This document shows, piece after piece, positions 1 to 59,731 of a stretch of DNA of 64,000 bases. The DNA is taken from sequence record PQ821640; one strand, 5' to 3'. Positions within the stretch are counted from its first letter, which is position 1, and each line of letters opens with the position of its first letter. Origin of the DNA: Escherichia phage SD2. A model generated the notes under the pieces. The model had not been told where the DNA came from and made no database searches. It worked only from the letters and a program-made list of their open reading frames with translations. A program made the position numbers and the translations under genes.

Positions 1-1116
1 TTACTCTGCTGGTTCCCAAGTACCTGGAATCATCTTACGTACACGTACACCTGTTGGTTTAGTAGGTATTCCACCATCGGAAAACTCTTCATACTCAATC
101 TCAACAAATTTACCAATTAACATTTCGGCATTTTCTGCTTTACGATAGTTAATGGTTTCATCTGAATCCTTACGCATCAGGAATTCGACTACTTTACCAT
201 TTTCCATCTCGCCTGTCAATACCCCGTCACCATTTTTATCACGTTTTGCACTTACCACTTTAACTTCAAGCGTCTGCCGTGGTTTACGTTTAATAACATC
301 ATAAGAACGTTTATCAAACTCGTAAACACCTTGTGCATTACGATACACAACACCTTCAGCTTTCTCACGCAGAGCTTTTGCATAGAACGCATCAAACTGC
401 TCTTGGTTTTCAATGTACTCTGTATGTACTACACAAATAAGTTCATCTAAACCTTTATCTTCAACAACTTCTTTTAGAGCAGCCAAAACTTCAACCCTCT
501 TCTCAAATGGTACAGATGGCACAGGAACATCATATACATAGTATTTAAGAAGCGGAGTGTTAGCATTATGCTTTTTCCACGCACTATTGATTTGTTGAAG
601 GCTAAGGACACCCAAACCAGCAAAAACTTCACCGTCAAGAGGATGACCAACTACTTCTTTAATGAAGGTTGGAATTTCTTTCCAGTGAGGTGGAAGTTTA
701 TATACTTCCCCAGCTTTAGATAAGCATTCACCTTGCATGTTAATCATTGAACGTAGACCATTCAATTTATACTGTGCATAACCTGGGAACAAAACACGAT
801 CAGCATAATCTTTATAATCCTGACATTTCATGGGTGTGGAAGGAACATGGTTTTCAGCTTCCTCTTTTGTTTTATAATACCCATTCTTAAGTTGCTTTGT
901 CCATTTGGCAAGAGCTTCTATTTCAGCTTGTTCTTCTGCTGTTGTTTCATTTGAGCGACCAATATTTTTAGGTTCTGCTGTATAAGATTTGCTAGTAATC
1001 TTTCCACCTAATTGACCATGAGCAACAGTTACAACACTACCTTCGGTATAGACTGACCACTGTTTAATTTTACCTGTAGAAGTTTTACCATACAATGTAG
1101 GATTAGTTTGTTTCAT
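1..1116 (-). CDS. ATP-dependent DNA ligase
   Basis: Motif I KxNGxR (YKLNGLR) and motif IV EGVVYR in the translation; start chosen at ATG 1116 behind a GGAGG site rather than the upstream ATG at 1164; stop at window position 1-3. Confidence 0.8.
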   Translation of the reverse strand: MKQTNPTLYGKTSTGKIKQWSVYTEGSVVTVAHGQLGGKITSKSYTAEPKNIGRSNETTAEEQAEIEALAKWTKQLKNGYYKTKEEAENHVPSTPMKCQDYKDYADRVLFPGYAQYKLNGLRSMINMQGECLSKAGEVYKLPPHWKEIPTFIKEVVGHPLDGEVFAGLGVLSLQQINSAWKKHNANTPLLKYYVYDVPVPSVPFEKRVEVLAALKEVVEDKGLDELICVVHTEYIENQEQFDAFYAKALREKAEGVVYRNAQGVYEFDKRSYDVIKRKPRQTLEVKVVSAKRDKNGDGVLTGEMENGKVVEFLMRKDSDETINYRKAENAEMLIGKFVEIEYEEFSDGGIPTKPTGVRVRKMIPGTWEPAE

Positions 1117-36293: not shown

Positions 36294-38453
36294 ATGAAAC
36301 AGGCTATTTTTACTGTAACTCGAAATACGAGAGTAAATGCCAGTTCATTCAGCTATAAGACCGTCGATGGAACGGCGGTCGCTGGTAGAGATTATGTAGC
36401 TAAACAGGGAACAGTAACGTTCCCTTCTGATGCAGATTCTGCTACTGTAGTGGTTGATGTATATGAACGTCCGGCAAACTCTTTAGATCTTTATTTTACT
36501 CTTGAGATTACTAGCATAAGTCAAAATAACATGATGATCAATGAAGAAATTCGTTGTGTTATTACGACTAATCAATCGAATACAACCCCGCTAACTTGGC
36601 CTGTTGTGAAGTCTAGAATGTTTGATCCTAAGTTTTGGACAATAGATTCTCAAGCAACAGAAAGTTGTTCTATTATCTCTAATGGTGATTCTTTCACAGC
36701 AAGAATGGTTAATAGGACAGTGGCTGGTCTTGCTGGGATTATTTGGTCAACTTACGATAAATATGATCACAAAGGATTAGGCTACCAAGAACATTCTGAC
36801 TTAAGTAAAGAGAAACTTTGGTTTAAGATGGAACTTAGTCAAGGTGTTCCTGGATTAAAAGAAGAAAAATTATTGCCATCCTTAACAGTGACACTGAAGG
36901 ATGAAACAGTTCATTATGTATCTCTAAACTTTTATGCAGAAGAAGTTTCAGAGGATGGTAAAACAGCAACAATCAAATTAGATTTCTCAAACTTAAAATC
37001 GGGGCCAGAAAATAATATTGTTGTTGACACTACACAAATAGATAATATGTTCTTCTCCTTGATCTCAACGAGGTATCAAGAAATTGAAGATATTATTCCT
37101 GTGGATAATGTGGATCTTTCCTTTAAGTTTACCATACTGGAGCCTGATACTGGTTACAGTATGATGAATATGGGTAATTTAAATGTTCCAGCACACACCA
37201 TAAGAATGTGTACATCTTATGATGATATGTATAACCTGACCCCAGAGCGAGTTATTTCTAACACCTATAGATTAGGTTATAGGGATATGATTAACCACTA
37301 TAATGGTATGTCACACTATTATCAGTTTAGTTGGGATGCTGGTTCTAATAAATGGGCTTTGAATAGAACAGAATATTTAAACCCAGCAACAGAAGCATGG
37401 TTTGATAATTTCCACGCTAATGCAAAAGCTATGGGCTACACAGTAATGAATTCCTTAAGTTTTGAACTTATGAGTACAGTGTGTCCTGTAGAATGGGTAC
37501 AACATACTTGGAATGATGATCTTGCTGCTACAGGTTATGAGCCACCAAGTTATGTATTATCTCCTTCGATTGATGAAGGGATGAATTATTTACAAGGTGT
37601 GATAAATAAGATAGCCTCTATATCCGCTGCTAATGATCTTCCGGTTATTATTCAGGTTGGTGAACCGTGGTGGTGGTATAACACAGCTACCAATCTACCG
37701 TGTATTTATGATTATACAACCAAAGTTGCATTTAATAATGAAACTGGATTATATGCACAAGATGTTGGTACAGTTAAGAATTATAAAACTGGTACACCAT
37801 ATGATGAATATTATGCATTCCTATCTAAAACATTAGGACTGCGTGTTGCTAAATTTGCAACAGATACTAGATTAGCATATCCTGGAGCAAAAGTTACATT
37901 GTTACCATTTGTGCCATCCATTTTGGGTAATGGTATGATGGAGTTTGTTAACTTCCCTAAAGATTATTATATCCCAGAAAACTTTGACTTTTATTGTTCA
38001 GAATGTTATGACTGGTTGTTGGAAGGTAAGATGGAAAAATCTTTCGACGCTATCACAATACCTAATGAGCAACTAGGTTTTAGTTACGATAAGATACATT
38101 ATCTTGCAGGGTTTGTTCCAGATGCAACTCTAGCACCATTATATGGCTTTGATCCTGAATCAAACTATAGAACATATTTGTGGAAAATGATTATAGGTAA
38201 TATTGTATTGAATGACCAGAAGTTTGTTGGTTTATATCAATACATATGGGCTTACCCACAAATAATGCATGATTCAATAACTGTTCTTAATTCAAAATCC
38301 CAAGTGTTTTATATGGGTAATGTGCCTTTGAATTGCTACTTGCAAGATATCACTCTTAAACAGGTAAATGTTGAGATTGCCACTATAAGTGGAATTACAT
38401 TAGCCACTAAATCTGGAGAAGATTTAGTAACAACACAAAAATTTTATATATAG
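36294..38453 (+). CDS. large tail fibre or baseplate protein with Calx-beta-like N-terminal segment
   Basis: N-terminal DGTAVAGRDYVAKQGTVTF resembles a Calx-beta motif; 719 aa. Confidence 0.35.
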   Translation: MKQAIFTVTRNTRVNASSFSYKTVDGTAVAGRDYVAKQGTVTFPSDADSATVVVDVYERPANSLDLYFTLEITSISQNNMMINEEIRCVITTNQSNTTPLTWPVVKSRMFDPKFWTIDSQATESCSIISNGDSFTARMVNRTVAGLAGIIWSTYDKYDHKGLGYQEHSDLSKEKLWFKMELSQGVPGLKEEKLLPSLTVTLKDETVHYVSLNFYAEEVSEDGKTATIKLDFSNLKSGPENNIVVDTTQIDNMFFSLISTRYQEIEDIIPVDNVDLSFKFTILEPDTGYSMMNMGNLNVPAHTIRMCTSYDDMYNLTPERVISNTYRLGYRDMINHYNGMSHYYQFSWDAGSNKWALNRTEYLNPATEAWFDNFHANAKAMGYTVMNSLSFELMSTVCPVEWVQHTWNDDLAATGYEPPSYVLSPSIDEGMNYLQGVINKIASISAANDLPVIIQVGEPWWWYNTATNLPCIYDYTTKVAFNNETGLYAQDVGTVKNYKTGTPYDEYYAFLSKTLGLRVAKFATDTRLAYPGAKVTLLPFVPSILGNGMMEFVNFPKDYYIPENFDFYCSECYDWLLEGKMEKSFDAITIPNEQLGFSYDKIHYLAGFVPDATLAPLYGFDPESNYRTYLWKMIIGNIVLNDQKFVGLYQYIWAYPQIMHDSITVLNSKSQVFYMGNVPLNCYLQDITLKQVNVEIATISGITLATKSGEDLVTTQKFYI

Positions 38454-38461
38454 GAGTAAAA

Positions 38462-40810
38462 ATGTCAACTACAATTACTAATTTACCCGAAACATCAAAA
38501 GTTAATGATTCTGATTACCTGGTTTTAGACCAACCTGATAAGACTGTTAAAAGCACAGTTTCCAACTTTCTTACTGACACTGGGGTGGTTTTAGCCACCC
38601 AGCTAGAAGATATTTCTGGAGCTACCAAGTATCCAGAACTTCAAATGTCGCGCTGGAGAGATGAAGGTGATGTTCGTGGGTGGGGTGCAAAGGTTGATGG
38701 TGTAACAGATGACTCTGATGCATTGATTGCAGCAATTAACTCTGGTCGTTCTAAATTGATCTTACCAGCAGGACGTTGTGTTATCTCTAAAACTTTAGAG
38801 ATTCCTGCCGGGGTAACTCTTGAAGGGCAGGGTATTGATTATTGGGATACTTGGCGTCCTGATGAAACTCGTTTGTTGAAGAGTTGGGATAAAGGAACCC
38901 ATATTGTAGTAACTGGTACAGGTCTTCGTAATAAGACGTTTGGTAACTTATCTAATGAACGTCCTGTTAAAACTGTATCCGGTACTGTCTGTGAGTTTAC
39001 TAAGTTTACTAATGAAGATGCATCAGGTACTACTCCAGCCACGTTGAAGTCATTCAGTGTAGCTGTGTCTGTAACCCATGCATCCCAGTTAAAGAACTTA
39101 CGTATTCTACTCAATAATGATGGTATTGATGGATATAACGATTTTGTCTCTACAGCTTTGGGTGATGATTGGGACATTGGTCTGCATGTATATGATAGTT
39201 CAGAAGCTGTTGTTGAGAATGTTCAGGTATGCGGTTACTGGAGAGTTGCAGGTACTCTGCTAACAGAGAATGATGGTTCCTTCACTATGATAGGGAATCC
39301 AGAAAGAACTCGATTCAATCGTTTCTTTACTCAGGGTATCCGTGGTCTGTTGATTCGTAATAGTCCACAGATTGATGTAGTTAGTAATACAACTGACTCT
39401 GTTACGTTTAAGAAACAGACCTCTTTACGTATTACTGCAACTAACTCATTCAGAATCCCTGGTAGTGCAACACAATATGTATTCACCGGTTCTACTACTG
39501 ATGGTACTAACATTACTTTGACTGGAGTTACACCAGCATTGCCAGTATCTATTGGGGTTATTCGTTTCCCTAATATTGGGAATAACTTCTCTGGTACTGT
39601 GTTTGAGAATACTGTTACTACAAGTTTTGAACACTCGTCTGGTAAATCATCGGATACACTTGGTCTGCCTGTAGCATTCGCTATGGAGATTGATGGTTAT
39701 CCTATGCGTAACCTTCGCTTCGATAAGTTTAAAGCACAGACTACCTTTGATAAGGGTAATACCCTATTTGGTGATTGCCGTGACATTAAGATTACTTCTT
39801 CTGAATTTGAGAATGGTTTAGTAGTAGCTTATAGCCTTGCAGAGACTCAAGGGTATACAGGTAACCTTCGTCTGTTTGCATCTGATCTTCAGGCATCTAC
39901 TGATACAACTGGATTTAATCCAAGAGATGCATTCTTAGATAATAAACAGATTAAGACAGACTTTACCGATGGTTCCTTTATTTTGAAGAACTGGCGAGAT
40001 ACCAATACACGAATTCAGTTCTCTGATGGTAGTGATGGTATTGTCATGCGAGAAGGAGCAAGTGAAGCATCTCCTGGCGGGTACTATATGTATACCAAGG
40101 ATGGATTACGTTGGCTTTCCCTGAATGGTGTAACCAAAGGAATAGATTTCGCTGTCTCCAACGGCAGTATTAAATATGCTACTGACAACAGTGTGGTATT
40201 TAACTGGTACGGTGCATCTGGAAACATGAACTTTAAAGGTACTATTTCCCCTCTGGTAGATAATTCTAAATCATTGGGTACAGGTACATTCCGTTGGTCA
40301 CAGTTGTTTGCTGGTAGTGGTACTATCAATACATCTGATGCAAGAGAGAAAACAACTCCTCATGCTATTACGGATGATATATTAGATGCTTGGGGTGATG
40401 TATCTATTATTGCTTTCCAATGGCTTAACATGGTTAAAGCTAAAGGTGGTGATAGTGCTCGTTGGCATTTTGGCGTTATTGCTCAACAGGTCAGAGATGC
40501 ATTCAATGCGCATGGTATTGATGGAACCAGATTGGGTCTGCTTTGCTATGACGAATGGGAAGACCAATACGAACCTGTAATGGCTACTCGTGATGTTGTA
40601 ACCCGTATTGAAGTTTCTGAGGGAGTATTCGTAGAAAGAGTCACTCAAGAAGAATATGATACTGGTGAGACTAAGTTAGTTGTTGCAGCAGGTAGTCGTT
40701 GGGGTATTCGTCCAGATCAATGTGCTTGGTTAGAGGCTGCTTACCAACGTAGACGTAGTGATAGAATTGAAGAACGTTTAGCTGCTTTAGAGAAACGTTT
40801 ATCAAATTAA
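38462..40810 (+). CDS. tailspike with pectate-lyase-like beta-helix and C-terminal self-cleaving chaperone domain
   Basis: WGAKVDGVTDDSDALIAAIN motif; C-terminal SDAREK cleavage-site motif followed by a conserved chaperone-like tail ending RLAALEKRL. Confidence 0.65.
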   Translation: MSTTITNLPETSKVNDSDYLVLDQPDKTVKSTVSNFLTDTGVVLATQLEDISGATKYPELQMSRWRDEGDVRGWGAKVDGVTDDSDALIAAINSGRSKLILPAGRCVISKTLEIPAGVTLEGQGIDYWDTWRPDETRLLKSWDKGTHIVVTGTGLRNKTFGNLSNERPVKTVSGTVCEFTKFTNEDASGTTPATLKSFSVAVSVTHASQLKNLRILLNNDGIDGYNDFVSTALGDDWDIGLHVYDSSEAVVENVQVCGYWRVAGTLLTENDGSFTMIGNPERTRFNRFFTQGIRGLLIRNSPQIDVVSNTTDSVTFKKQTSLRITATNSFRIPGSATQYVFTGSTTDGTNITLTGVTPALPVSIGVIRFPNIGNNFSGTVFENTVTTSFEHSSGKSSDTLGLPVAFAMEIDGYPMRNLRFDKFKAQTTFDKGNTLFGDCRDIKITSSEFENGLVVAYSLAETQGYTGNLRLFASDLQASTDTTGFNPRDAFLDNKQIKTDFTDGSFILKNWRDTNTRIQFSDGSDGIVMREGASEASPGGYYMYTKDGLRWLSLNGVTKGIDFAVSNGSIKYATDNSVVFNWYGASGNMNFKGTISPLVDNSKSLGTGTFRWSQLFAGSGTINTSDAREKTTPHAITDDILDAWGDVSIIAFQWLNMVKAKGGDSARWHFGVIAQQVRDAFNAHGIDGTRLGLLCYDEWEDQYEPVMATRDVVTRIEVSEGVFVERVTQEEYDTGETKLVVAAGSRWGIRPDQCAWLEAAYQRRRSDRIEERLAALEKRLSN

Positions 40811-40820
40811 GCAAGCAAGG

Positions 40821-41015
40821 ATGCTTGCTCCTACTAGAAAAATAAAGAGGTACTATAAGGAGACGCAAAGGGCGTATTCCCTACCTGCTGATATTGCCCC
40901 AGGTACTACTGCCATTAGTCTTAGTGCTGCTGTACTTGTGCATTCAGCGGGTTCTGTAGACCTTGGGGAATTAGCTGTATCTCGTGATTTAAAAAGTAAT
41001 GAGAACGCATTATGA
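40821..41015 (+). CDS. hypothetical small protein (64 aa)
   Basis: Short ORF; start overlaps a hairpin. Confidence 0.25.
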   Translation: MLAPTRKIKRYYKETQRAYSLPADIAPGTTAISLSAAVLVHSAGSVDLGELAVSRDLKSNENAL

Positions 41016-53733: not shown

Positions 53734-53763
53734 TTCAAAGAAAAGGAGCCGTTAGGCTCCTTA
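53734..53763 (-). terminator. rho-independent terminator (minus strand)
   Basis: AAGGAGCC-TAAC-GGCTCCTT hairpin followed by TTTCTTTG on minus strand. Confidence 0.5.
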
Positions 53764-53784: not shown

Positions 53785-54732
53785 TTAGAAACAGTGCAGG
53801 AAGTTTCGACCATATTGCAAACCAATAGGAGCAAACGGGATATCATCATCGAAATCTTGAACAACAGGTTCTGGTTCTTTCGGTGCTGGCTCTTTCTTCT
53901 CTACTTTTTTAGTTTCTTTCTTAACTTCTTGTACTGGAGTAGACATTCCACGGATAGCAGCAGCTACTTTATCAGACAAAGCAAGAACTTCACGAGCAGC
54001 TTCAATAATTTCTTCTGCCGTTACAGTTTTACCTGTATGATCACGACAAGCGTTAAGAATTGCGTGTCCAACTGAAGCACCAAGATCATAGTCAGTCACA
54101 TCAACGCCACGATCTTTAGCAATTTCAGCTTTCAGAGTAACAGTTGCAGATTGTACCACACCAGCCAAGTCGAAAGCATCACCTTTCACACCAGCACGTA
54201 GAAGCTCCAGAGCGCCGTTTATAGCGTGTCCTGTTTCAATCCCTACGGTATCACGTTTTTTGTAGTTAGGCTTGCTACCGTCATTATTAGAGGGCTTATT
54301 TCCACCTTTTGAAGAGGATTGCGCTTGCTGAACACCTTCTGTTGAAAGAATAGTGATTTTACCTTTAGAGGAGTTGTAGTATGTTTTGCCATTCCATTCG
54401 GAAGGTTTAACATCCATAGTTAGTTCTACACCTTTTTCGATAGTAACCCACTTATCACCATCTTTAACTTGCAGGTTTTCATGTTCTGGGTGCAGTTTAA
54501 CTTCACCTAGGCTAACCCAAACACCTTTATCATCAGCACCAGCACCTTTCTCTTTAATAAGCAGAGATGCTTTGTGAGTTGATTCAATTTTCTTATCTGG
54601 CTGACCTGCAACCTTAATATAAGAGACTTTCATTTCATCAAACTTATCTAGTTTGACATATTCGACAATACCTTCAGCCCAGAATGCTTCTTTTTTAGTA
54701 CGACGGTCGATTTCAGAATTAATTACTGGCAT
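53785..54732 (-). CDS. single-stranded DNA-binding-like protein with host-SSB C-terminal tip
   Basis: C-terminus DFDDDIPF matches the E. coli SSB tail tip; Gly/Ser/Asn-rich linker; N-terminal domain not obviously canonical. Confidence 0.5.
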   Translation of the reverse strand: MPVINSEIDRRTKKEAFWAEGIVEYVKLDKFDEMKVSYIKVAGQPDKKIESTHKASLLIKEKGAGADDKGVWVSLGEVKLHPEHENLQVKDGDKWVTIEKGVELTMDVKPSEWNGKTYYNSSKGKITILSTEGVQQAQSSSKGGNKPSNNDGSKPNYKKRDTVGIETGHAINGALELLRAGVKGDAFDLAGVVQSATVTLKAEIAKDRGVDVTDYDLGASVGHAILNACRDHTGKTVTAEEIIEAAREVLALSDKVAAAIRGMSTPVQEVKKETKKVEKKEPAPKEPEPVVQDFDDDIPFAPIGLQYGRNFLHCF

Positions 54733-54748
54733 AAATTCTCCTCTATAA

Positions 54749-55147
54749 TTACATTACTTTAACACAAAACTCTCGTAAAAGAGTAGCGTCAGTTTCTTCC
54801 AACAGGTATTTACCAAGACCAATACCAAATCCTATTTCACCACTTTCAAAATGGAGAATTTGTATCTTTTCTCCACCAAGGTTAATTACTTTTGCTTTTC
54901 CAGGATTGTCCAAAACATCTCGTATTGTGTCCTGTAGTAGCATTAGTTCACGTTTTGTGATAGTGGTTTCAGATATCTCTTTGTCTTCTACCCGCACTGT
55001 TAAACGGTTGTATCCACCAAAGAGACATAGTATTTGAATAAAAAAGGTATTATCTTGAGGTTCAACATCTTTTTTAGTTAGTTCAAGACGATTAGTTTCT
55101 CTACTATAGAACGTCTCGACTAAGATTTTAGAACGATTGTCTGTCAT
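54749..55147 (-). CDS. hypothetical protein (132 aa)
   Basis: ORF behind GAGGA. Confidence 0.45.
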   Translation of the reverse strand: MTDNRSKILVETFYSRETNRLELTKKDVEPQDNTFFIQILCLFGGYNRLTVRVEDKEISETTITKRELMLLQDTIRDVLDNPGKAKVINLGGEKIQILHFESGEIGFGIGLGKYLLEETDATLLREFCVKVM

Positions 55148-55158
55148 TCAAGTCCTCA

Positions 55159-55187
55159 TAATAACACATAATTGTAAGGTTTGTCAA
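55159..55187 (-). promoter_or_regulatory. sigma70-like promoter on minus strand (TTGACA-N17-TTATTA)
   Basis: Consensus -35 in the 43-nt gap upstream of 55147; very short leader makes it uncertain. Confidence 0.3.
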
Positions 55188-55190
55188 CAC

Positions 55191-55805
55191 TTAAATCTTA
55201 AATTCTTCGTTGTTAAACGAATCCAGTGTACGTACTTCTGGTTCTTTGGGGATGAAAACGTCTTTTACAAAGCGGAACATAGGGAAACGTTCTGCCATTT
55301 TACGGACGTGTGCTTCTTTACCTGTGTATCGGTGATTAATAGTGCAAATATTAGTTTTCAATGCAAATTCAAAATCTGGATGATATACATAATTTAGACC
55401 ATCCCAGTAACACAGGCAAATAGCTACGTCAAAATTCCATACGATTTCACTGCGTACACCTTCTTCCATGATCATAAAGTTAAACTTAAGATCTTTATAG
55501 TATGCTTCAAATACCCATTTCAGATGTGGTAGTTCGGCATAAGTATGTTCTGTTTGCTTAGTGAGTTGTTTAACATTACGTGCACCAACACCCAACATCA
55601 AAAACTTCTCTACTAGCACGAGTGTATTGTGGTTAGGCATACGCAAGTAAATGTCAATGTCTTGTGCAGGTTTCTCTAATCGCCAATCACGTACAGCACC
55701 GCCAGCTACAATTGCAAACGGATCTACCAGTTGGCACATACGTAATACTTCTAAAGCGCGTACTTTTTGATCTTCAATATTCATATTTTCTCCTATCGTG
55801 TCCAC
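55191..55805 (-). CDS. nucleotidyltransferase with CCA-adding-enzyme-like head motif
   Basis: GGAVRDWRLEKPAQDIDIY resembles the pol-beta-type GGAVRD...D.D head motif of tRNA nucleotidyltransferases; only 204 aa. Confidence 0.5.
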   Translation of the reverse strand: MDTIGENMNIEDQKVRALEVLRMCQLVDPFAIVAGGAVRDWRLEKPAQDIDIYLRMPNHNTLVLVEKFLMLGVGARNVKQLTKQTEHTYAELPHLKWVFEAYYKDLKFNFMIMEEGVRSEIVWNFDVAICLCYWDGLNYVYHPDFEFALKTNICTINHRYTGKEAHVRKMAERFPMFRFVKDVFIPKEPEVRTLDSFNNEEFKI

Positions 55806-56389
55806 TCTTTGTGTTGTTCTACATGCTCAAGCATTTCATTATACAGTGCTTTAAGATGTGGAACAACTCTTTCATCTTCAGTTTCAAAGAATTTTGTAAG
55901 CTGCTCTGCCTTAGCTTTCAACCAGCAAAGATGTGCTTCAATTTCAGTATTAAAACGTCCCAGCGTTATAACACGTCCATCGCGTTGAATATGGGCTTTA
56001 TACTTTTTACGATCTTTTTCGTAACTACAGCCTACCATAGTTCCATGAGATCTTTTACTTACTCTATAAGCTAAGAACTTGTTAAGATCTCCTGTTACTA
56101 AAAGACAGGTATCGGGAGAGTAAACTCTCCCTCCTATAATATCTTTATCAAGTTCTAAGTTTTCCCAGTTATCCCAAGTTTGCAACCAGGAGTAGAAATT
56201 GGAGAACAACTTCCATTCTTCACAAACCGTCACCCCATTATAACAAGGATCACGTTCTTGTTGGCAAGGGGAGTAACACCTCCCCAACATAGCCATCCAT
56301 TTCATATAATGCGGCGTTAGTTTCTTACTACCAGGTAGCGTACTCTCGCCTTCCAAATCATTAATACCTTCACCATATACGGTAAGCAT
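55793..56389 (-). CDS. homing endonuclease-like protein with AP2-type DNA-binding domain
   Basis: C-terminal KKYKAHIQRDGRVITLGRFNTEIEAHLCWLKA matches the AP2 pattern; wedged between polymerase and nucleotidyltransferase genes. Confidence 0.45.
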   Translation of the reverse strand: MLTVYGEGINDLEGESTLPGSKKLTPHYMKWMAMLGRCYSPCQQERDPCYNGVTVCEEWKLFSNFYSWLQTWDNWENLELDKDIIGGRVYSPDTCLLVTGDLNKFLAYRVSKRSHGTMVGCSYEKDRKKYKAHIQRDGRVITLGRFNTEIEAHLCWLKAKAEQLTKFFETEDERVVPHLKALYNEMLEHVEQHKEWTR

Positions 56390-56416: not shown

Positions 56417-59400
56417 TCAGTGACAAGACGCCCATGAATTACCAACATCGTAACCAGCAGTGAGAGGTACATTAAGATTGTAATACTCACCAGCTTTATT
56501 AACAGCGATAGATGCTAATTCTCCAGCACGACTGTAGGCTGTAAACCAACCACCTTTCGGAGATTCATGTACGTTAGCCCAAATCTTGCCAGTACGTTTC
56601 TCTTCCTCTTCTTTCCAGGCATTAACTTTATCCAAACATTCTTTATCAATTTTCTTTTGTTCTTCTGGATCATCAACTTGAGTCCAACCTAAAGATTCTT
56701 TAGAGAACCATTTAAAATGCACCAGATCACGAGTTACTTCAAGCTGTGCTTCATCGTGATATGCAATCATTTGTTGAACGAATGACTTATTTTTCCAGTC
56801 ATCAACAAAAAAGTCAACAGCTAATCCTTCTTCTTCGATAAGATCGTCGTAGATAACCATTGCTCTTTTTGCACAAATAACACCACCACTCTGGAACAGA
56901 GAGTTAAGTATTGCGTGTGCAGATCGTGTAGGTACTTTCCTACCATCAATACCCAGAATGTATTTCTTACCTGTTTTAACCCAGAAATCATGCAGACGTT
57001 CTTTAAGAAGTGCAAGAGGTTTTGCAGCTTCCCAGAAAGCATCGTATACAAGCTGTCCTGTATACATATCACTACCAATAGTTTTTGCTACTTTTGCAGC
57101 TTGAGCACCATAAGTAATACCATACTTAACAGATTTAGCAGGGCTTCGTTCAAACTTACGACCAATAGTGTCAGAAATACGTCGAGCCATCATTGTATGA
57201 ACATCATTAGGTTTTTCCAACAATAGAGCATTACAATATTCGTGTGGTTCCTGCTCGTACCGCCAACAATTCCCTGTAATCGTGATGCAGTCTTTCTGAC
57301 GCATAACCCATGTACCGAGTTCTGTTTGTGGACACCAAACATCTTCTACACCCCATTCTTCAATAGTCAGACTTTGAACAGGGATGTGAGAGCGGTTAGC
57401 CAACGTTGCCACTTTTACTTTCTGGTCTTTCGTATTGAAGGCTACAGAAATATTACCCCCATGAACCAGGTATGAGGCAGTTAAGGCTGCTTCAAAAAGT
57501 TCTCCTGGGTTCTGCGCCCAGCGCCAAACAGGTTTTTGTTTATGTTTGTGCCAGTAACCATCCGCAATCAAAAAACCTTCCAAGAAAGCCACACGCTCGG
57601 CATGAGACATATTAACTACACGTTCTACCCACGGAACATCCCATTTACCTTGTTGAACAGAAGTTAAACTATTTACTTGATCTTGTTCCATGTTAAATGG
57701 AGCATTACAAATAATGTTATCTCCTGTGCAAAGCTCGGCAGTTGTTCTGACTTTAGGCACATAAGTATTCCCTGTACTACGAGTATTAACATACCAACGG
57801 TGATCTGCTGTTGCACGATAAGTATGGGATTTTCCTTTAATCTCAAACGTCTTACTATTTTTATAGAAGACCTTACCTTTTACTTTAGTCCATTCTTTAA
57901 GTCCTGTTTCTGGGTTATATCCTAAGATTTCATCCCCTTCTTGTAGATCGTGATAACCAACCCAACCTTTACGGGTTAGTGCTTGTGCATCCATAGGTAC
58001 ACAGTAGTGTGATTCTATTTTTGCCTCAAGAGAATCAAAGTCATAACCAATTTGGAAGTATTTTGGAACTTCTACACCAAATAAGTTACGCATTTCATAT
58101 CCGTACAGAGATGTTACACGTGGGATATTTGCTACTAACCTATGTTTCATACGAGACGTAGCTGCATCGCACGTTGCAGCAGGGGTTGGTATACGACCAT
58201 CAGCCCTTACTGCCGCCAGATAACCTTTATCGTAATCCTCTTCATCCTCTTCCCAATCAGCGCCACCCCCTAGAATAGAGTTCCTACGATGTTTATACGT
58301 AAGATACTGCACAATCTGCGTAGCATAAGGAAACTTTTCACCTAGTGCTTCCAAGTTAGGACAAATATCCTTCTCTTGCCCTTTTGTAAAGGAAGGGTTA
58401 GTAAGCACTTTAACACCACGACCTTTAGCTTTAGCAATACGATCTCTTAGTTTCCATTCCAAAGTTTCTGGTGTGCACTCCAGATGATCACATCTATCCT
58501 GGCAGAAGTTAGATGCTAATGTTTGATCAACATAGTCACGAATAGCTTTCTCCATTTGTGCTTCATCTTTCTTAATCTTAGTGCCAGATTTAAGAGTGAT
58601 ATCTTTATCTTTATATTCAGATGGACTCCAACCTAAACCAACTAACCAATTTTTAATATGTGTAGTGTCGTCTAAAGTAGCAGGTACTGTAGGATCACAA
58701 ATAGGTTCTTCTGCTGGAATAGGTAGTTTAAACTCTTTACCTAATGCAAATAACCACCAACCATCTTCTTTTTGTACAAGTTCACCAGAATGTTTCTCTG
58801 CAAACTTTATCATGTTACTTGAAGGTTCACCATTCTTTTTAAACTGTAGTTTAGGTGGAATGAATGATTTCAAATAACCTTTAGTAGCAGGTTTAGGAGG
58901 TAGTACAGGTTCTGCCTCTAAACGACATGCTTCCATTCGAGCATCCAGATCACGAATATTATCTTCTGCTTGTTTCATATTGAAAGCAAAGCCACGGTGC
59001 TCTTGACGTGTAATAATATCAGCTACACGTTGTTCTAAGTTAAATGGTTCAGACCACTTATTATAATCACCCCACTCTTCCATCAAATAACGGAACACTG
59101 CGGTGTTAGCTTTGTTATCGTAAATACAGTAATACAACATATCTGCTGCAAATGTTCTAAATCTTTCAGTTTCAGGGATGTTTTTTCTAAAATCAATTTT
59201 AACATCCCCTCCAGCTTTCTTAGATAACTCTGCCAGACTATGACCACCGAAGCGATCAGGGTTTAGTGTCTTACTTAAGATCATAGTATCACAAATTTCA
59301 ATGTTACTATTACCCCAAGTATTGTACTTAATACTGTAGTTGAGTTTAAAAAATAATTTAATTGCCAGTAAGTCGAAGTTAATGATGTTGTGTCCGACTA

Positions 59401-59731
59401 CTTTGGTAATTTTATAGTTTGAATTACCTTTAAATTTACCTGTTCCATTTACAAAATCAGGAAAATCTTTAAGAGGGAAATGGGTATATTCTAAATGCTC
59501 ATATTCCTCCAGTCGGTATTCATACTTTCCGTCAGTCTCAATATACGGACGACCATCGAAAAGATATTTATCACCATCATGGAAAGCAATAATCTCTCCA
59601 GTATCATGACTTTCGCACACAATACAGTGCATTGCAAAACTATCTTTTAAACGATATGGACTTGCCAAGTAATCTACACTTTCGTCATTAAGCAAGTTGT
59701 TACTTTCAATGTCGAAAGTAAAAGCTCCCAT
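56417..59731 (-). CDS. DNA polymerase, family A, interrupted by an intein
   Basis: Exo I FDIES; motif A DFDSLEAKI; motif B RSPAKSVKYGITYGA; motif C YHDE; 1104 aa including insertion. Confidence 0.8.
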   Translation of the reverse strand: MGAFTFDIESNNLLNDESVDYLASPYRLKDSFAMHCIVCESHDTGEIIAFHDGDKYLFDGRPYIETDGKYEYRLEEYEHLEYTHFPLKDFPDFVNGTGKFKGNSNYKITKVVGHNIINFDLLAIKLFFKLNYSIKYNTWGNSNIEICDTMILSKTLNPDRFGGHSLAELSKKAGGDVKIDFRKNIPETERFRTFAADMLYYCIYDNKANTAVFRYLMEEWGDYNKWSEPFNLEQRVADIITRQEHRGFAFNMKQAEDNIRDLDARMEACRLEAEPVLPPKPATKGYLKSFIPPKLQFKKNGEPSSNMIKFAEKHSGELVQKEDGWWLFALGKEFKLPIPAEEPICDPTVPATLDDTTHIKNWLVGLGWSPSEYKDKDITLKSGTKIKKDEAQMEKAIRDYVDQTLASNFCQDRCDHLECTPETLEWKLRDRIAKAKGRGVKVLTNPSFTKGQEKDICPNLEALGEKFPYATQIVQYLTYKHRRNSILGGGADWEEDEEDYDKGYLAAVRADGRIPTPAATCDAATSRMKHRLVANIPRVTSLYGYEMRNLFGVEVPKYFQIGYDFDSLEAKIESHYCVPMDAQALTRKGWVGYHDLQEGDEILGYNPETGLKEWTKVKGKVFYKNSKTFEIKGKSHTYRATADHRWYVNTRSTGNTYVPKVRTTAELCTGDNIICNAPFNMEQDQVNSLTSVQQGKWDVPWVERVVNMSHAERVAFLEGFLIADGYWHKHKQKPVWRWAQNPGELFEAALTASYLVHGGNISVAFNTKDQKVKVATLANRSHIPVQSLTIEEWGVEDVWCPQTELGTWVMRQKDCITITGNCWRYEQEPHEYCNALLLEKPNDVHTMMARRISDTIGRKFERSPAKSVKYGITYGAQAAKVAKTIGSDMYTGQLVYDAFWEAAKPLALLKERLHDFWVKTGKKYILGIDGRKVPTRSAHAILNSLFQSGGVICAKRAMVIYDDLIEEEGLAVDFFVDDWKNKSFVQQMIAYHDEAQLEVTRDLVHFKWFSKESLGWTQVDDPEEQKKIDKECLDKVNAWKEEEEKRTGKIWANVHESPKGGWFTAYSRAGELASIAVNKAGEYYNLNVPLTAGYDVGNSWASCH
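57269..58003 (-). mobile_element. intein (245 aa) in DNA polymerase between motifs A and B, LAGLIDADG-like remnant
   Basis: Starts with Cys after ESHY (CVPMDAQALTRKGW), TADH block B-like, internal FLEGFLIADGYW, ends ITITGN followed by Cys. Confidence 0.55.

What the first reader, a model, noticed from the sequence alone, without database searches (positions are those of the whole stretch)
53785..54732. Phage SSB-like protein ending in the exact E. coli SSB tip motif DFDDDIPF
The C-terminal eight residues are identical to the acidic tip of host SSB that recruits many replication and repair partners, preceded by a Gly/Ser/Asn-rich linker. The N-terminal domain does not obviously resemble the bacterial SSB OB-fold by eye, so this may be a different DNA-binding scaffold that has acquired the host interaction tip, either to recruit or to titrate host SSB-interacting proteins.
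Basis: seen in the sequence. Interest (0 to 1): 0.6.

Follow-up and report, generated by a model that had tools for sequence, protein, structure and literature searches.

The report
Phage SSB with capped host-type tip
This is most likely the phage's own single-stranded-DNA-binding protein, carrying the host SSB docking motif, but here the motif is followed by a conserved 15-residue extension that also occurs on many other phage SSBs and often sits next to a homing endonuclease gene.

Summary
The ORF (53785-54732, minus strand, 315 aa) is real and is phi92 gp156. DFDDDIPF is present but at residues 293-300, not at the C-terminus: 15 more residues (APIGLQYGRNFLHCF) follow. The Gly/Ser/Asn-rich stretch is an inter-domain linker, not the segment before the tip.

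Structure prediction gives an N-terminal OB fold, a conserved four-helix bundle, a disordered linker, the tip and the extension. The gene lies in a T7-like replisome module, and the closely related complete genome has no other recognisable SSB.

A 2026 preprint describes the Vequintavirus ortholog (Bas52_0087) as an SSB-like trigger of the DRT10 defence. The SSB-like reading is therefore already known for the family.

I found no description of the extension in the searched library:
- Tip plus extension occurs on at least seven unrelated ssDNA-binding scaffolds, mostly prophage SSBs.
- It is almost always 15 residues long.
- It is under in-frame purifying selection (pN/pS 0.40).
- It is present or absent among 99%-identical phages.

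In related myoviruses it travels with an HNH homing endonuclease. Homologs of that endonuclease sit directly behind tip-ending genes in 71 of 73 loci. The extension's function is unknown.

The parts
55158..55187 (-). Sigma-70-like promoter (TTGACA, 18-nt spacer, TATTAT, with TG) upstream of the two-gene unit
   Evidence: 11 of 12 consensus matches. This is a consensus match only. Inferred to drive the gp157-like gene and this gene.
54749..55147 (-). Upstream 132-aa ORF (phi92 gp157-like, PHROG 16560, unknown function), always directly upstream of this gene
   Evidence: The same small gene precedes the homolog in nieznany, ukendt, L131 and L132. A small gene also sits there in I29, V18 and Bas52; its homology to gp157 was not tested.
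54738..54743 (-). Ribosome-binding site GAGGAG, 5 nt before the ATG
   Evidence: Read from the sequence. phi92 annotates an AGGAG RBS at the same place.
53785..54732 (-). CDS of the SSB-like protein (315 aa, 34.4 kDa, pI 6.05); equals phi92 gp156; member of PHROG 4477
54337..54732 (-). Residues 1-132: OB-fold domain
54253..54336 (-). Residues 133-160: disordered, basic Gly/Ser/Asn/Lys-rich inter-domain linker
   Evidence: pLDDT 46-69; pI 10.3. The rV5-like homologs carry an extra beta domain at this position.
53947..54252 (-). Residues 161-262: four-helix bundle, the most conserved part of the family (D161, G164, G168-H169-A170, N172, Y215-D216, G218-A219, G222)
   Evidence: D161 aligns with D252 of Bas52_0087, and A257 with Y351. 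Both are sites of DRT10 escape substitutions.
53857..53946 (-). Residues 263-292: disordered Lys/Glu/Pro-rich linker
53833..53856 (-). Residues 293-300: DFDDDIPF, identical to the last eight residues of E. coli SSB, but internal here
   Evidence: This is the only part of the protein that matches solved SSB chains.
53788..53832 (-). Residues 301-315: extension APIGLQYGRNFLHCF
   Evidence: Predicted disordered.
53795..53813 (-). 19 nt inside the extension (ATGGTCGAAACTTCCTGCA) identical to the first 19 nt of the annotated HNH endonuclease gene of phage nieznany; no endonuclease gene follows here
   Evidence: tblastn with the endonucleases finds nothing in the window or in JohannJBalmer.
53743..53762 (-). 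Intrinsic-terminator-like hairpin (AAGGAGCC-TAAC-GGCTCCTT followed by a T run), 22 nt after the stop codon
   Evidence: An equivalent hairpin follows the extension-less alleles of ukendt and L131.

Best explanation
The gene most likely encodes the phage's own single-stranded-DNA-binding protein, serving a T7-like replisome (family-A polymerase plus primase-helicase).

Architecture: an OB fold that would bind ssDNA; a conserved four-helix bundle that probably mediates self-association; and a flexible tail carrying the host SSB docking motif.

In this phage the docking motif is capped by a 15-residue extension. My reading is that the extension is a second short linear motif that works together with the tip. 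By removing the free terminal carboxylate it would weaken binding to the classical host SSB partners. It may add or switch to another, still unknown, conserved partner.

The extension probably reached this lineage by co-conversion with an HNH homing endonuclease that inserts at the 3' end of SSB genes. That endonuclease has since been lost here.

Shown: the architecture, the genomic context, the distribution of the extension, in-frame selection on it, and its association with the endonuclease.

Inferred: ssDNA binding, the oligomerisation role of the helical domain, the effect of the extension on partner binding, and the direction of the homing events.
For: SSB role:
- OB fold at high confidence, with ssDNA-binding OB proteins as best matches.
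- Disordered tail with the E. coli tip.
- The gene lies next to a nucleotidyltransferase, an HNH gene, a family-A DNA polymerase and a Toprim/DnaB_C primase-helicase.
- Distant homologs (27-30% identity) sit directly after primase-helicase and DNA polymerase A (L136, L137), or beside ribonucleotide reductase and a 5'-3' exonuclease (L135).
- The complete genome of JohannJBalmer (about 97% identical to the window) has no annotated SSB. tblastn with E. coli SSB or T7 gp2.5 finds only this tail.
- Tips differ between family members (DDIPF, DDLPW, DGLDF, DDVAF, EDAPF); I infer this tracks the host, which was not tested.
- The ortholog Bas52_0087 is described as SSB-like and is genetically required to trigger DRT10. 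Its escape substitutions map to the helical domain.
- Some Phapecoctavirus homologs are already named SSB in NCBI and UniRef.

The extension as a functional module:
- The same tip plus extension occurs on canonical SSBs of HK75, epsilon34, g341c and mEp235, and on at least six other scaffolds.
- Its length is 15 residues in 96 loci, with pN/pS 0.40 in frame against 1.27 and 1.43 out of frame.
- All 5 differences in 48 nt between the window and nieznany are synonymous in the SSB frame.
- The tip stays conserved in front of the extension.
- It is rare in plasmids, 14 of 72,556 records.
- An HK75-type ssb gene is found in 412 of 5,426 complete E. coli genomes; 304 carry at least 80% of the gene.

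Homing origin:
- Extension plus HNH gene is present in nieznany, L132, I29/rV5 and L106, and both are absent in sister phages.
- 71 of 73 loci holding a homolog of that HNH gene have an upstream gene ending in an SSB tip.
Against: - No biochemical data exist for any family member. ssDNA binding is inferred from fold and context.
- The extension is dispensable. Proteins in the same 90%-identity cluster exist with and without it (295 vs 310 aa; 396/397 vs 411/412 aa).
- In V18 a deletion removed the extension and restored a terminal ...DDSIPF.
- AF2 leaves the extension disordered and undocked, even with an alignment of extension-bearing sequences only.
- No partner has been identified. Neighbouring genes of extension-bearing SSBs are heterogeneous.
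- The first five residues of the extension logo were fixed by my own search pattern. Only positions 6-15 and the length are independent evidence from that set.
Confidence: 0.65

Rival explanations
1. The extension is a functionless passenger. It would be read-through sequence brought in by homing-endonuclease insertion at the tip/stop-codon junction, perhaps only making the allele immune to cleavage. It would be tolerated because the phage SSB does not depend on a free tip.
For: - Presence and absence among 99%-identical phages correlates with the endonuclease gene in Vequintavirus. Of 31 extension-bearing rows, 19 list an endonuclease; of 29 extension-less rows, none does.
- The same contrast appears in the pairs nieznany/ukendt and L132/L131.
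- Endonuclease-adjacent SSB genes usually have altered ends: tip+1 residue in 47 of 73, and +4, +10 or +15 in 5.
- A deletion in V18 restored a terminal tip.
- The extension is predicted to be disordered.
Against: - In-frame purifying selection (pN/pS 0.40 against 1.27 and 1.43 in the other frames) and a fixed 15-codon length.
- All window/nieznany differences are synonymous in the SSB frame but not in the endonuclease frame.
- 118 of 120 extension-bearing IMG/VR loci have no homolog of this endonuclease.
- The extension is retained in all phi92-like phages and in hundreds of E. coli prophages without the endonuclease.
Confidence: 0.2
2. The extension is a removable or destabilising cap. Either it is a pro-peptide cleaved after Phe300 to expose a normal SSB tip at the right time, or it is a C-terminal degron (hydrophobic end of the type ...[IL]-[YHN]-x-[ILVMF]) that keeps the level of phage SSB low.
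For: - The tip in front of the extension remains as conserved as a terminal tip. This is expected if the tip must eventually work as a tip.
- The F-A-P junction is invariant in the family-based set, which was not forced by my search pattern.
- The length to the C-terminus is fixed and the last residues are hydrophobic.
- From my own knowledge, non-polar C-terminal tails are recognised by cytoplasmic proteases such as ClpXP and FtsH. I did not test any motif match.
Against: No protease site or degron consensus was matched by any test here. The phages that carry the extension share no obvious common protease. A degron would not explain the conserved AP-I/V-G-L part.
Confidence: 0.15
3. The protein is not the replicative SSB. 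It would be a dedicated host-interference factor (a decoy that titrates host SSB partners) or an accessory recombination or repair mediator.
For: - Bas52_0087 is linked genetically to ExoI-controlled DRT10 activation. The authors suggest competition with SbcB.
- The OB domain is not basic.
- The most conserved part is the helical domain, not the OB fold.
Against: - Conserved position directly after primase-helicase and DNA polymerase in distant relatives.
- No other SSB candidate in a genome that encodes its own replisome.
- In this phage the tip is capped, which should make it a poorer decoy for carboxylate-dependent pockets.
Confidence: 0.12

Closest known systems
Bas52_0087 of Escherichia phage RudolfGeigy (Bas52, Vequintavirus), the 'phage-encoded SSB-like protein' that triggers DRT10 (bioRxiv 10.64898/2026.04.29.721553)
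   Same: Same family. BLASTP E 1e-15 over the helical domain plus tail, and 3e-14 over the OB domain. Same order of OB fold, four-helix bundle, disordered region and FDDDIPF tip. The escape residue D252 corresponds to the near-invariant D161 here.
   Different: Bas52_0087 has a second beta domain (408 aa), ends exactly at ...DDDIPF, and has no endonuclease downstream. The window protein has one OB domain and the 15-residue extension. The preprint shows no ssDNA-binding data and does not mention extended tips in the passages I read.
E. coli SSB (bacterial-type SSB, PF00436 / TIGR00621)
   Same: The octapeptide DFDDDIPF is identical. A disordered linker precedes it. An OB fold serves as the predicted DNA-binding unit.
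   Different: There is no sequence similarity outside the tail. An extra four-helix bundle is present. The tip is not C-terminal here, whereas partner pockets contact the terminal carboxylate.
Bacterial-type SSBs of temperate phages and prophages with the same tail (HK75, mEp235, mEpX2, epsilon34, g341c; 'SSB-1' of lambdoid recombination modules, PMC12315714)
   Same: Same bipartite tail. HK75 ends ...NEPPMDFDDDIPFAPVTLPFPRHAIHAI, also with a 15-residue extension.
   Different: The body is a canonical SSB OB domain. TIGR00621 ends at the IPF, so the extension lies outside the model. These genes sit in recombination modules next to Erf, Sak4 or exonuclease genes, not in a replisome module. According to PMC12315714 these phage SSBs have not been studied experimentally.
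T7 gp2.5
   Same: It fills the same slot in a T7-like replisome module. From my own knowledge, it has an acidic C-terminal tail whose terminal Phe contacts the phage polymerase and helicase.
   Different: No sequence similarity. It is not among the top structural matches. gp2.5-like proteins (L055, L104) form one of the other scaffolds that carry the same tip plus extension.
Free-standing homing endonucleases beside phage SSB genes (from my own knowledge: T4 SegG next to gene 32)
   Same: An endonuclease gene sits at the end of an SSB gene. Presence is patchy among near-identical phages, and the neighbouring SSB sequence changes with it.
   Different: Here it is an HNH (or endonuclease VII-like) enzyme with a shared Zn-finger N-terminus. 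It sits behind SSB genes of at least 15 unrelated body types, and the only feature they share is the tip.

Membership tests
Bacterial-type SSB (PF00436 / TIGR00621) | Sequence match of the DNA-binding domain to the SSB OB-fold models | tested here: not met
   Pfam: 0 families at E<=1. NCBIfam: 0 families. A profile search against PDB sequences matches SSB only over the last ~24 residues of the profile, i.e. the tip. tblastn with E. coli SSB hits only the tail.
Bacterial-type SSB (PF00436 / TIGR00621) | OB fold followed by a disordered linker | tested here: met
Bacterial-type SSB (PF00436 / TIGR00621) | Acidic tip ...DDDIPF at the very C-terminus, with a free Phe carboxylate | tested here: not met
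   The tip is residues 293-300 of 315. This feature is met in 95 of 116 family members.
Bacterial-type SSB (PF00436 / TIGR00621) | High-affinity ssDNA binding as an oligomer | not testable with these tools
   Needs purified protein.
PHROG 4477 / Bas52_0087-type phage SSB-like proteins | Sequence homology over the OB and helical domains | tested here: met
   PHROG 4477, E 1.5e-101. BLASTP to Bas52_0087, E 1e-15 and 3e-14. 359 representatives at 50% identity with E<=1e-3.
PHROG 4477 / Bas52_0087-type phage SSB-like proteins | OB fold(s), four-helix bundle, disordered C-terminal region and SSB C-tip | tested here: met
   compared with the legend of Fig. S6 of the preprint. There is one OB domain here instead of two.
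PHROG 4477 / Bas52_0087-type phage SSB-like proteins | Required for activation of the DRT10 defence | not testable with these tools
   The preprint reports protection against Stephanstirmvirinae in general. Values for individual phages are in a figure that is not held.
T7 gp2.5-like SSB | Sequence or fold similarity to gp2.5 | tested here: not met
T7 gp2.5-like SSB | Encoded within a module holding a family-A polymerase and a gp4-like primase-helicase | tested here: met
Tip-plus-extension tail module (defined here) | D-[FY]-D-x-D-[IV]-P-F, followed by A-P-[IV]-G-L and ten more residues ending in a hydrophobic residue; 15 residues after the Phe | tested here: met
   APIGLQYGRNFLHCF. Compare.
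Tip-plus-extension tail module (defined here) | Purifying selection on the peptide | tested here: met
   pN/pS 0.40 in frame against 1.27 and 1.43. 5 of 5 differences to nieznany are synonymous.
SSB-3'-end-associated HNH homing endonuclease cassette | Zn-finger HNH gene starting within or just after the end of the SSB gene | tested here: not met
   There is no endonuclease homolog in the window or in JohannJBalmer. Only the first 19 nt of the nieznany gene are present, and they lie inside the extension.

The most novel reading that the evidence does not exclude
The 15-residue extension is a portable switch on the SSB interaction hub. By capping the tip and adding a second motif, it would redirect phage SSBs away from carboxylate-dependent host partners such as exonuclease I. 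It could direct them towards another conserved target. It could also hide the tip from defence systems that sense phage SSBs or the titration of ExoI (DRT10, Retron-Eco8, Hna, AbpAB, Hachiman). It would spread between unrelated SSB scaffolds by co-conversion with a homing endonuclease family that homes to the tip-coding sequence.
Probability: 0.3. Interest if true: 0.8.

Novelty: new variant of a known kind. Interest (0 to 1): 0.6.

Why it matters
The SSB C-terminal tip is the central docking site for a large set of bacterial replication and repair proteins. It is thought to need a free terminal phenylalanine.

Here a conserved, selected extension sits behind an otherwise perfect tip. It occurs on many phage SSBs, including prophage copies in several percent of complete E. 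coli genomes. This means either that these tails work differently or that phages deliberately mask the tip.

Phage SSBs are recurrent triggers of anti-phage defence, so the extension may bear on defence activation. The BASEL collection holds near-isogenic natural pairs with the extension (Bas54, DrSchubert, EmilHeitz, and the phi92-like phages such as Bas62) and without it (Bas52 and others). This makes the question directly testable.

The endonuclease family that sits almost exclusively behind SSB genes also offers a concrete mechanism for how interaction tails could be exchanged between unrelated proteins.

Tried and rejected
Searches that gave nothing useful:
- Pfam, NCBIfam and PDB-sequence searches gave nothing beyond the tail.
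- BFVD returned only uncharacterised phage proteins.
- Foldseek against the PDB gave nothing with E<=0.001.
- The afdb50 library was not available.
The 45-residue version returned only short fragments, so full-length extension-bearing proteins had to be collected with a degenerate DNA pattern instead.
- Literature searches for the motif string and for extended phage SSB tips found nothing. This applies only to the library searched.

Ideas about the extension that I considered and rejected or could not support:
1. Docking motif for one phage annealing protein. Rejected, because upstream neighbours are Erf (23), Sak4-like (13), exonuclease (7) and others.
2. Docking motif for the adjacent HNH enzyme. 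Unlikely, because only L106 among the 120 extension-bearing loci carries a homolog next to the SSB gene, and the window has none.
3. Conservation caused by the overlapping endonuclease reading frame. Rejected, because the differences are synonymous in the SSB frame and non-synonymous in the other.
4. Beta-clamp-binding hexapeptide (x-hydrophobic-x-L-x-aromatic). Judged by eye only. The usual Gln is missing and variants such as LGHGY do not fit. Not supported, and not testable here.
5. Intramolecular docking onto the helical bundle. AF2 with an alignment of extension-bearing sequences only leaves the extension at pLDDT 41-54. This negative result is weak evidence.

A second canonical SSB elsewhere in the genome was looked for and not found.

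Full report
**What is there.**
The window is a phi92-like myovirus (Justusliebigvirus). It is collinear with Escherichia phage JohannJBalmer at 95-99.5% DNA identity across the aligned blocks. The ORF at 53785-54732 on the minus strand encodes 315 aa and is 96.5% identical to phi92 gp156, a 'conserved hypothetical protein'.

The gene has a GAGGAG ribosome-binding site. It follows a 132-aa gene of unknown function, which is preceded by a strong sigma-70-like promoter. A terminator-like hairpin comes 22 nt after its stop codon.

DFDDDIPF is present, and 4e-7 chance occurrences are expected. However, it occupies residues 293-300 and is followed by APIGLQYGRNFLHCF before the stop codon. A Lys/Glu/Pro-rich stretch precedes the tip.

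**Architecture.**
No Pfam or NCBIfam model matches. PHROG 4477 ('unknown function') matches at E 1.5e-101. Solved structures match only through the tail.

AlphaFold2 with a 55-sequence alignment gives four parts:
- an all-beta domain at residues 1-132 (pLDDT about 84-96);
- a disordered linker;
- a four-helix bundle at residues 163-260 (pLDDT 91-97);
- a disordered C-terminal region that includes the tip and the extension (pLDDT about 50).

The helical bundle is the best-conserved part of the family. It carries two G-H-A-x-N-like motifs and a D-Y-D-x-G-A motif.

**Why an SSB.**
The gene lies in the replication module, downstream of:
- a Toprim/DnaB_C primase-helicase;
- a family-A DNA polymerase;
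- a free-standing HNH gene;
- a nucleotidyltransferase.

In relatives of only 27-30% identity, the homolog again follows primase-helicase and DNA polymerase A directly, or sits with ribonucleotide reductase and a 5'-3' exonuclease.

The complete JohannJBalmer genome encodes its own polymerase, primase-helicase, ligase and exonucleases but has no annotated SSB. E. coli SSB or T7 gp2.5 used as tblastn queries find only this tail.

Across 359 family representatives the tail ends in acidic tips of different flavours (DDIPF, DDLPW, DGLDF, DDVAF, EDAPF). I infer that this reflects matching to the host's own SSB tip, which I did not test.

**Prior knowledge.**
A preprint of April 2026 (10.64898/2026.04.29.721553) isolated escape mutants of BASEL phage Bas52 against the DRT10 reverse-transcriptase defence. 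Both substitutions mapped to Bas52_0087, which the authors describe as follows:
- an 'SSB-like' protein with two OB folds, a four-helix bundle, a disordered region and a C-tip FDDDIPF;
- functionally linked to host exonuclease I.

I verified three points:
- Bas52 is phage RudolfGeigy, and bas52_0087 is the Vequintavirus member of this family.
- It aligns with the window protein over both domains.
- The escape residue D252 is the near-invariant D161 of the window protein, at the start of the helical bundle.

Some Phapecoctavirus homologs are already named 'single-stranded DNA-binding protein' in NCBI and UniRef, while all phi92-like copies are 'hypothetical'. The general reading, an SSB-like phage protein with the host tip, is therefore known for the family. 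No ssDNA-binding experiment has been reported in what I could read.

**The extension.**
Of 116 homologs, 95 end exactly in ...PF. Nineteen family members, plus one protein of a different scaffold (P0116), carry 15-17 extra residues of the pattern [AS]-P-[IVL]-G-L-Q-Y-x-x-[HN]-....

A profile of tip plus extension retrieved fragments of ordinary bacterial-type SSBs from Salmonella, E. coli, Proteus, Providencia and Klebsiella with the same tail. tblastn found it in the annotated SSBs of HK75, mEp235, mEpX2, epsilon34, g341c and others. HK75 SSB is a canonical SSB whose TIGR00621 match ends at IPF and is followed by APVTLPFPRHAIHAI.

Of these, 93 are canonical SSBs. The rest fall into at least five other body types, including gp2.5-like proteins and a ~243-aa family next to Sak4-like ATPases.

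Properties of the extension:
- **Length:** it is 15 codons in 96 loci.
- **Conservation:** positions 6-15, which my pattern did not constrain, show a consistent pattern ending in [IL]-[YNH]-x-[ILV].
- **Selection:** pN/pS is 0.40 in the SSB frame against 1.27 and 1.43 in the other frames.
- **Tip:** it stays conserved in front of the extension.
- **Distribution:** it is rare in plasmids (14 of 72,556 records, several of them phage-plasmid-sized or mislabelled chromosomes). It is common in prophages: an HK75-type ssb gene is found in 412 of 5,426 complete E. coli genomes, and 304 carry at least 80% of the gene.
- **Neighbours:** they vary (Erf 23, Sak4-like 13, exonuclease 7), so no single phage partner is implied.
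- **Structure:** AF2 leaves it disordered, also with an alignment of extension-bearing sequences only.

I found no description of this extension in the searchable literature.

**Link to a homing endonuclease.**
In Phapecoctavirus nieznany the extension is followed, with overlap, by an HNH endonuclease gene. The sister phage ukendt has neither, although the upstream DNA is almost identical.

The same contrast appears elsewhere:
- A phi92-related metagenomic phage carrying both (L132) differs from one carrying neither (L131).
- In Vequintavirus, 31 of the 60 best records have the extension and 19 of these list an endonuclease at that spot. The other 29 lack the extension and none lists one.
- V18 carries a 5'-truncated remnant of the endonuclease gene. 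The deletion also removed the extension and recreated a terminal ...DDSIPF.
- Bas52 has neither.
- A contig with an unrelated 351-aa SSB scaffold and the extension also carries this endonuclease, frameshifted, right after the stop codon.

The endonucleases share a Zn-finger N-terminus but differ in their nuclease domains.

Searching viral contigs with the nieznany enzyme gave 73 loci with enough upstream sequence. In 71 of them the upstream same-strand gene ends in an SSB-type acidic tip:
- exactly at the tip in 19;
- with one extra residue in 47 (Asn in 36);
- with 4, 10 or 15 extra residues in 5.

The protein bodies of these upstream genes fall into at least 15 clusters that share nothing but the tip. 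For comparison, only 1 of the 116 family homologs has a one-residue addition.

I infer that this endonuclease family homes to the tip-coding 3' end of SSB genes. I also infer that insertion or co-conversion commonly alters the end of the protein.

The window has the extension but no endonuclease. Its extension DNA is 43/48 identical to nieznany's, although the proteins are only about 60% identical. All five differences are synonymous in the SSB frame. Homology stops at the stop codon.

The simplest history is that the extension arrived with an endonuclease cassette that was later lost. A Dam methylase and a 143-aa gene now lie downstream.

**Mechanism and its limits.**
Known partner pockets (DnaG-C, ExoI, RecO, chi, PriA) bind the terminal Phe side chain and form a salt bridge with its carboxylate (PMC5872125). 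An internal Phe300 cannot make that contact. As encoded, this tail should therefore bind classical partners less well.

The tip nevertheless remains perfectly conserved in front of the extension, and the extension itself is under selection. I therefore favour a bipartite motif that changes the partner repertoire.

I rank two other readings lower:
- a pure hitch-hiking scar, disfavoured by selection, fixed length and wide occurrence without the endonuclease;
- a cleavable cap or degron, which was not testable here.

[quoted passage not shown] An effect of the cap on defence sensing is therefore a reasonable, testable idea, but nothing here shows it.

**Verdict.**
This is a real gene and a real motif. 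The protein is most likely the phage's replicative SSB, from a family recently recognised as SSB-like. That discrepancy is the interesting part: a conserved, mobile 15-residue cap on the SSB tip, together with an endonuclease family dedicated to SSB gene ends.

Noticed in passing
L006:5905-6399, L008:3600-4223, L132:3944-4372, L106 (about 280-700, minus strand); loci L140-L219: A family of Zn-finger HNH (or endonuclease VII-like) homing endonuclease genes sits almost exclusively just downstream of genes ending in an SSB acidic tip. This holds in 71 of 73 loci, across at least 15 unrelated protein bodies. In those alleles the tip usually carries one extra residue (IPF-N in 36).
   Followed up: partly
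window 57269-58000 (minus strand), inside the DNA polymerase ORF 56417-59731: A 244-aa in-frame insertion is absent from JohannJBalmer's otherwise 98.6-99.5% identical polymerase. It starts with Cys and ends ...TITGN followed by Cys. It has a weak LAGLIDADG-like match (FLEGFLIADGYW). It looks like an intein. phi92's polymerase gene has the same length.
   Followed up: partly
window 55793-56389 (minus strand): A free-standing HNH endonuclease gene (PHROG 953, E 8.5e-74) lies between the DNA polymerase and the nucleotidyltransferase. It is unrelated to the SSB-associated endonuclease family. phi92 has no gene at this position (its annotation goes straight from gp158 to the polymerase gp159).
   Followed up: no
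window 54749-55147 (minus strand): A 132-aa protein of unknown function (PHROG 16560) is always encoded directly upstream of the SSB-like gene in Stephanstirmvirinae. A small gene holds the same position in Vequintavirus. With the promoter at 55187-55158 and the terminator at 53762-53743, the two genes look like one transcription unit, so it could be a partner of the SSB-like protein.
   Followed up: no
L005:3569-4075 (HK75 ssb); E. coli genomes: Prophage ssb genes of the HK75 type, which carry the tip-plus-15-residue tail, occur in 412 of 5,426 complete E. coli genomes. They are annotated simply as 'ssb', so the unusual C-terminus is invisible in annotation.
   Followed up: partly
window 38349-41011 and 10282-14366, compared with JohannJBalmer: These are segments without close DNA similarity to JohannJBalmer. 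One lies between tail-fibre genes. Another lies in the tRNA region near the genome ends. Both are probably variable receptor-binding and tRNA-cassette regions.
   Followed up: no
P0004 (L132:3001-3957): One homolog has a duplicated tip followed by the extension: ...NDDVPFDDDIPFAPIGLQYGMNLLHAMP. This may be a trace of recombination at the tip-coding sequence.
   Followed up: no
rV5-like homologs (P0063, P0066, L008:2357-3628): The longer family members (about 400-423 aa) carry an extra beta-rich domain inserted in the linker between the OB fold and the helical bundle. This is the 'second OB fold' of the Bas52_0087 preprint.
   Followed up: no
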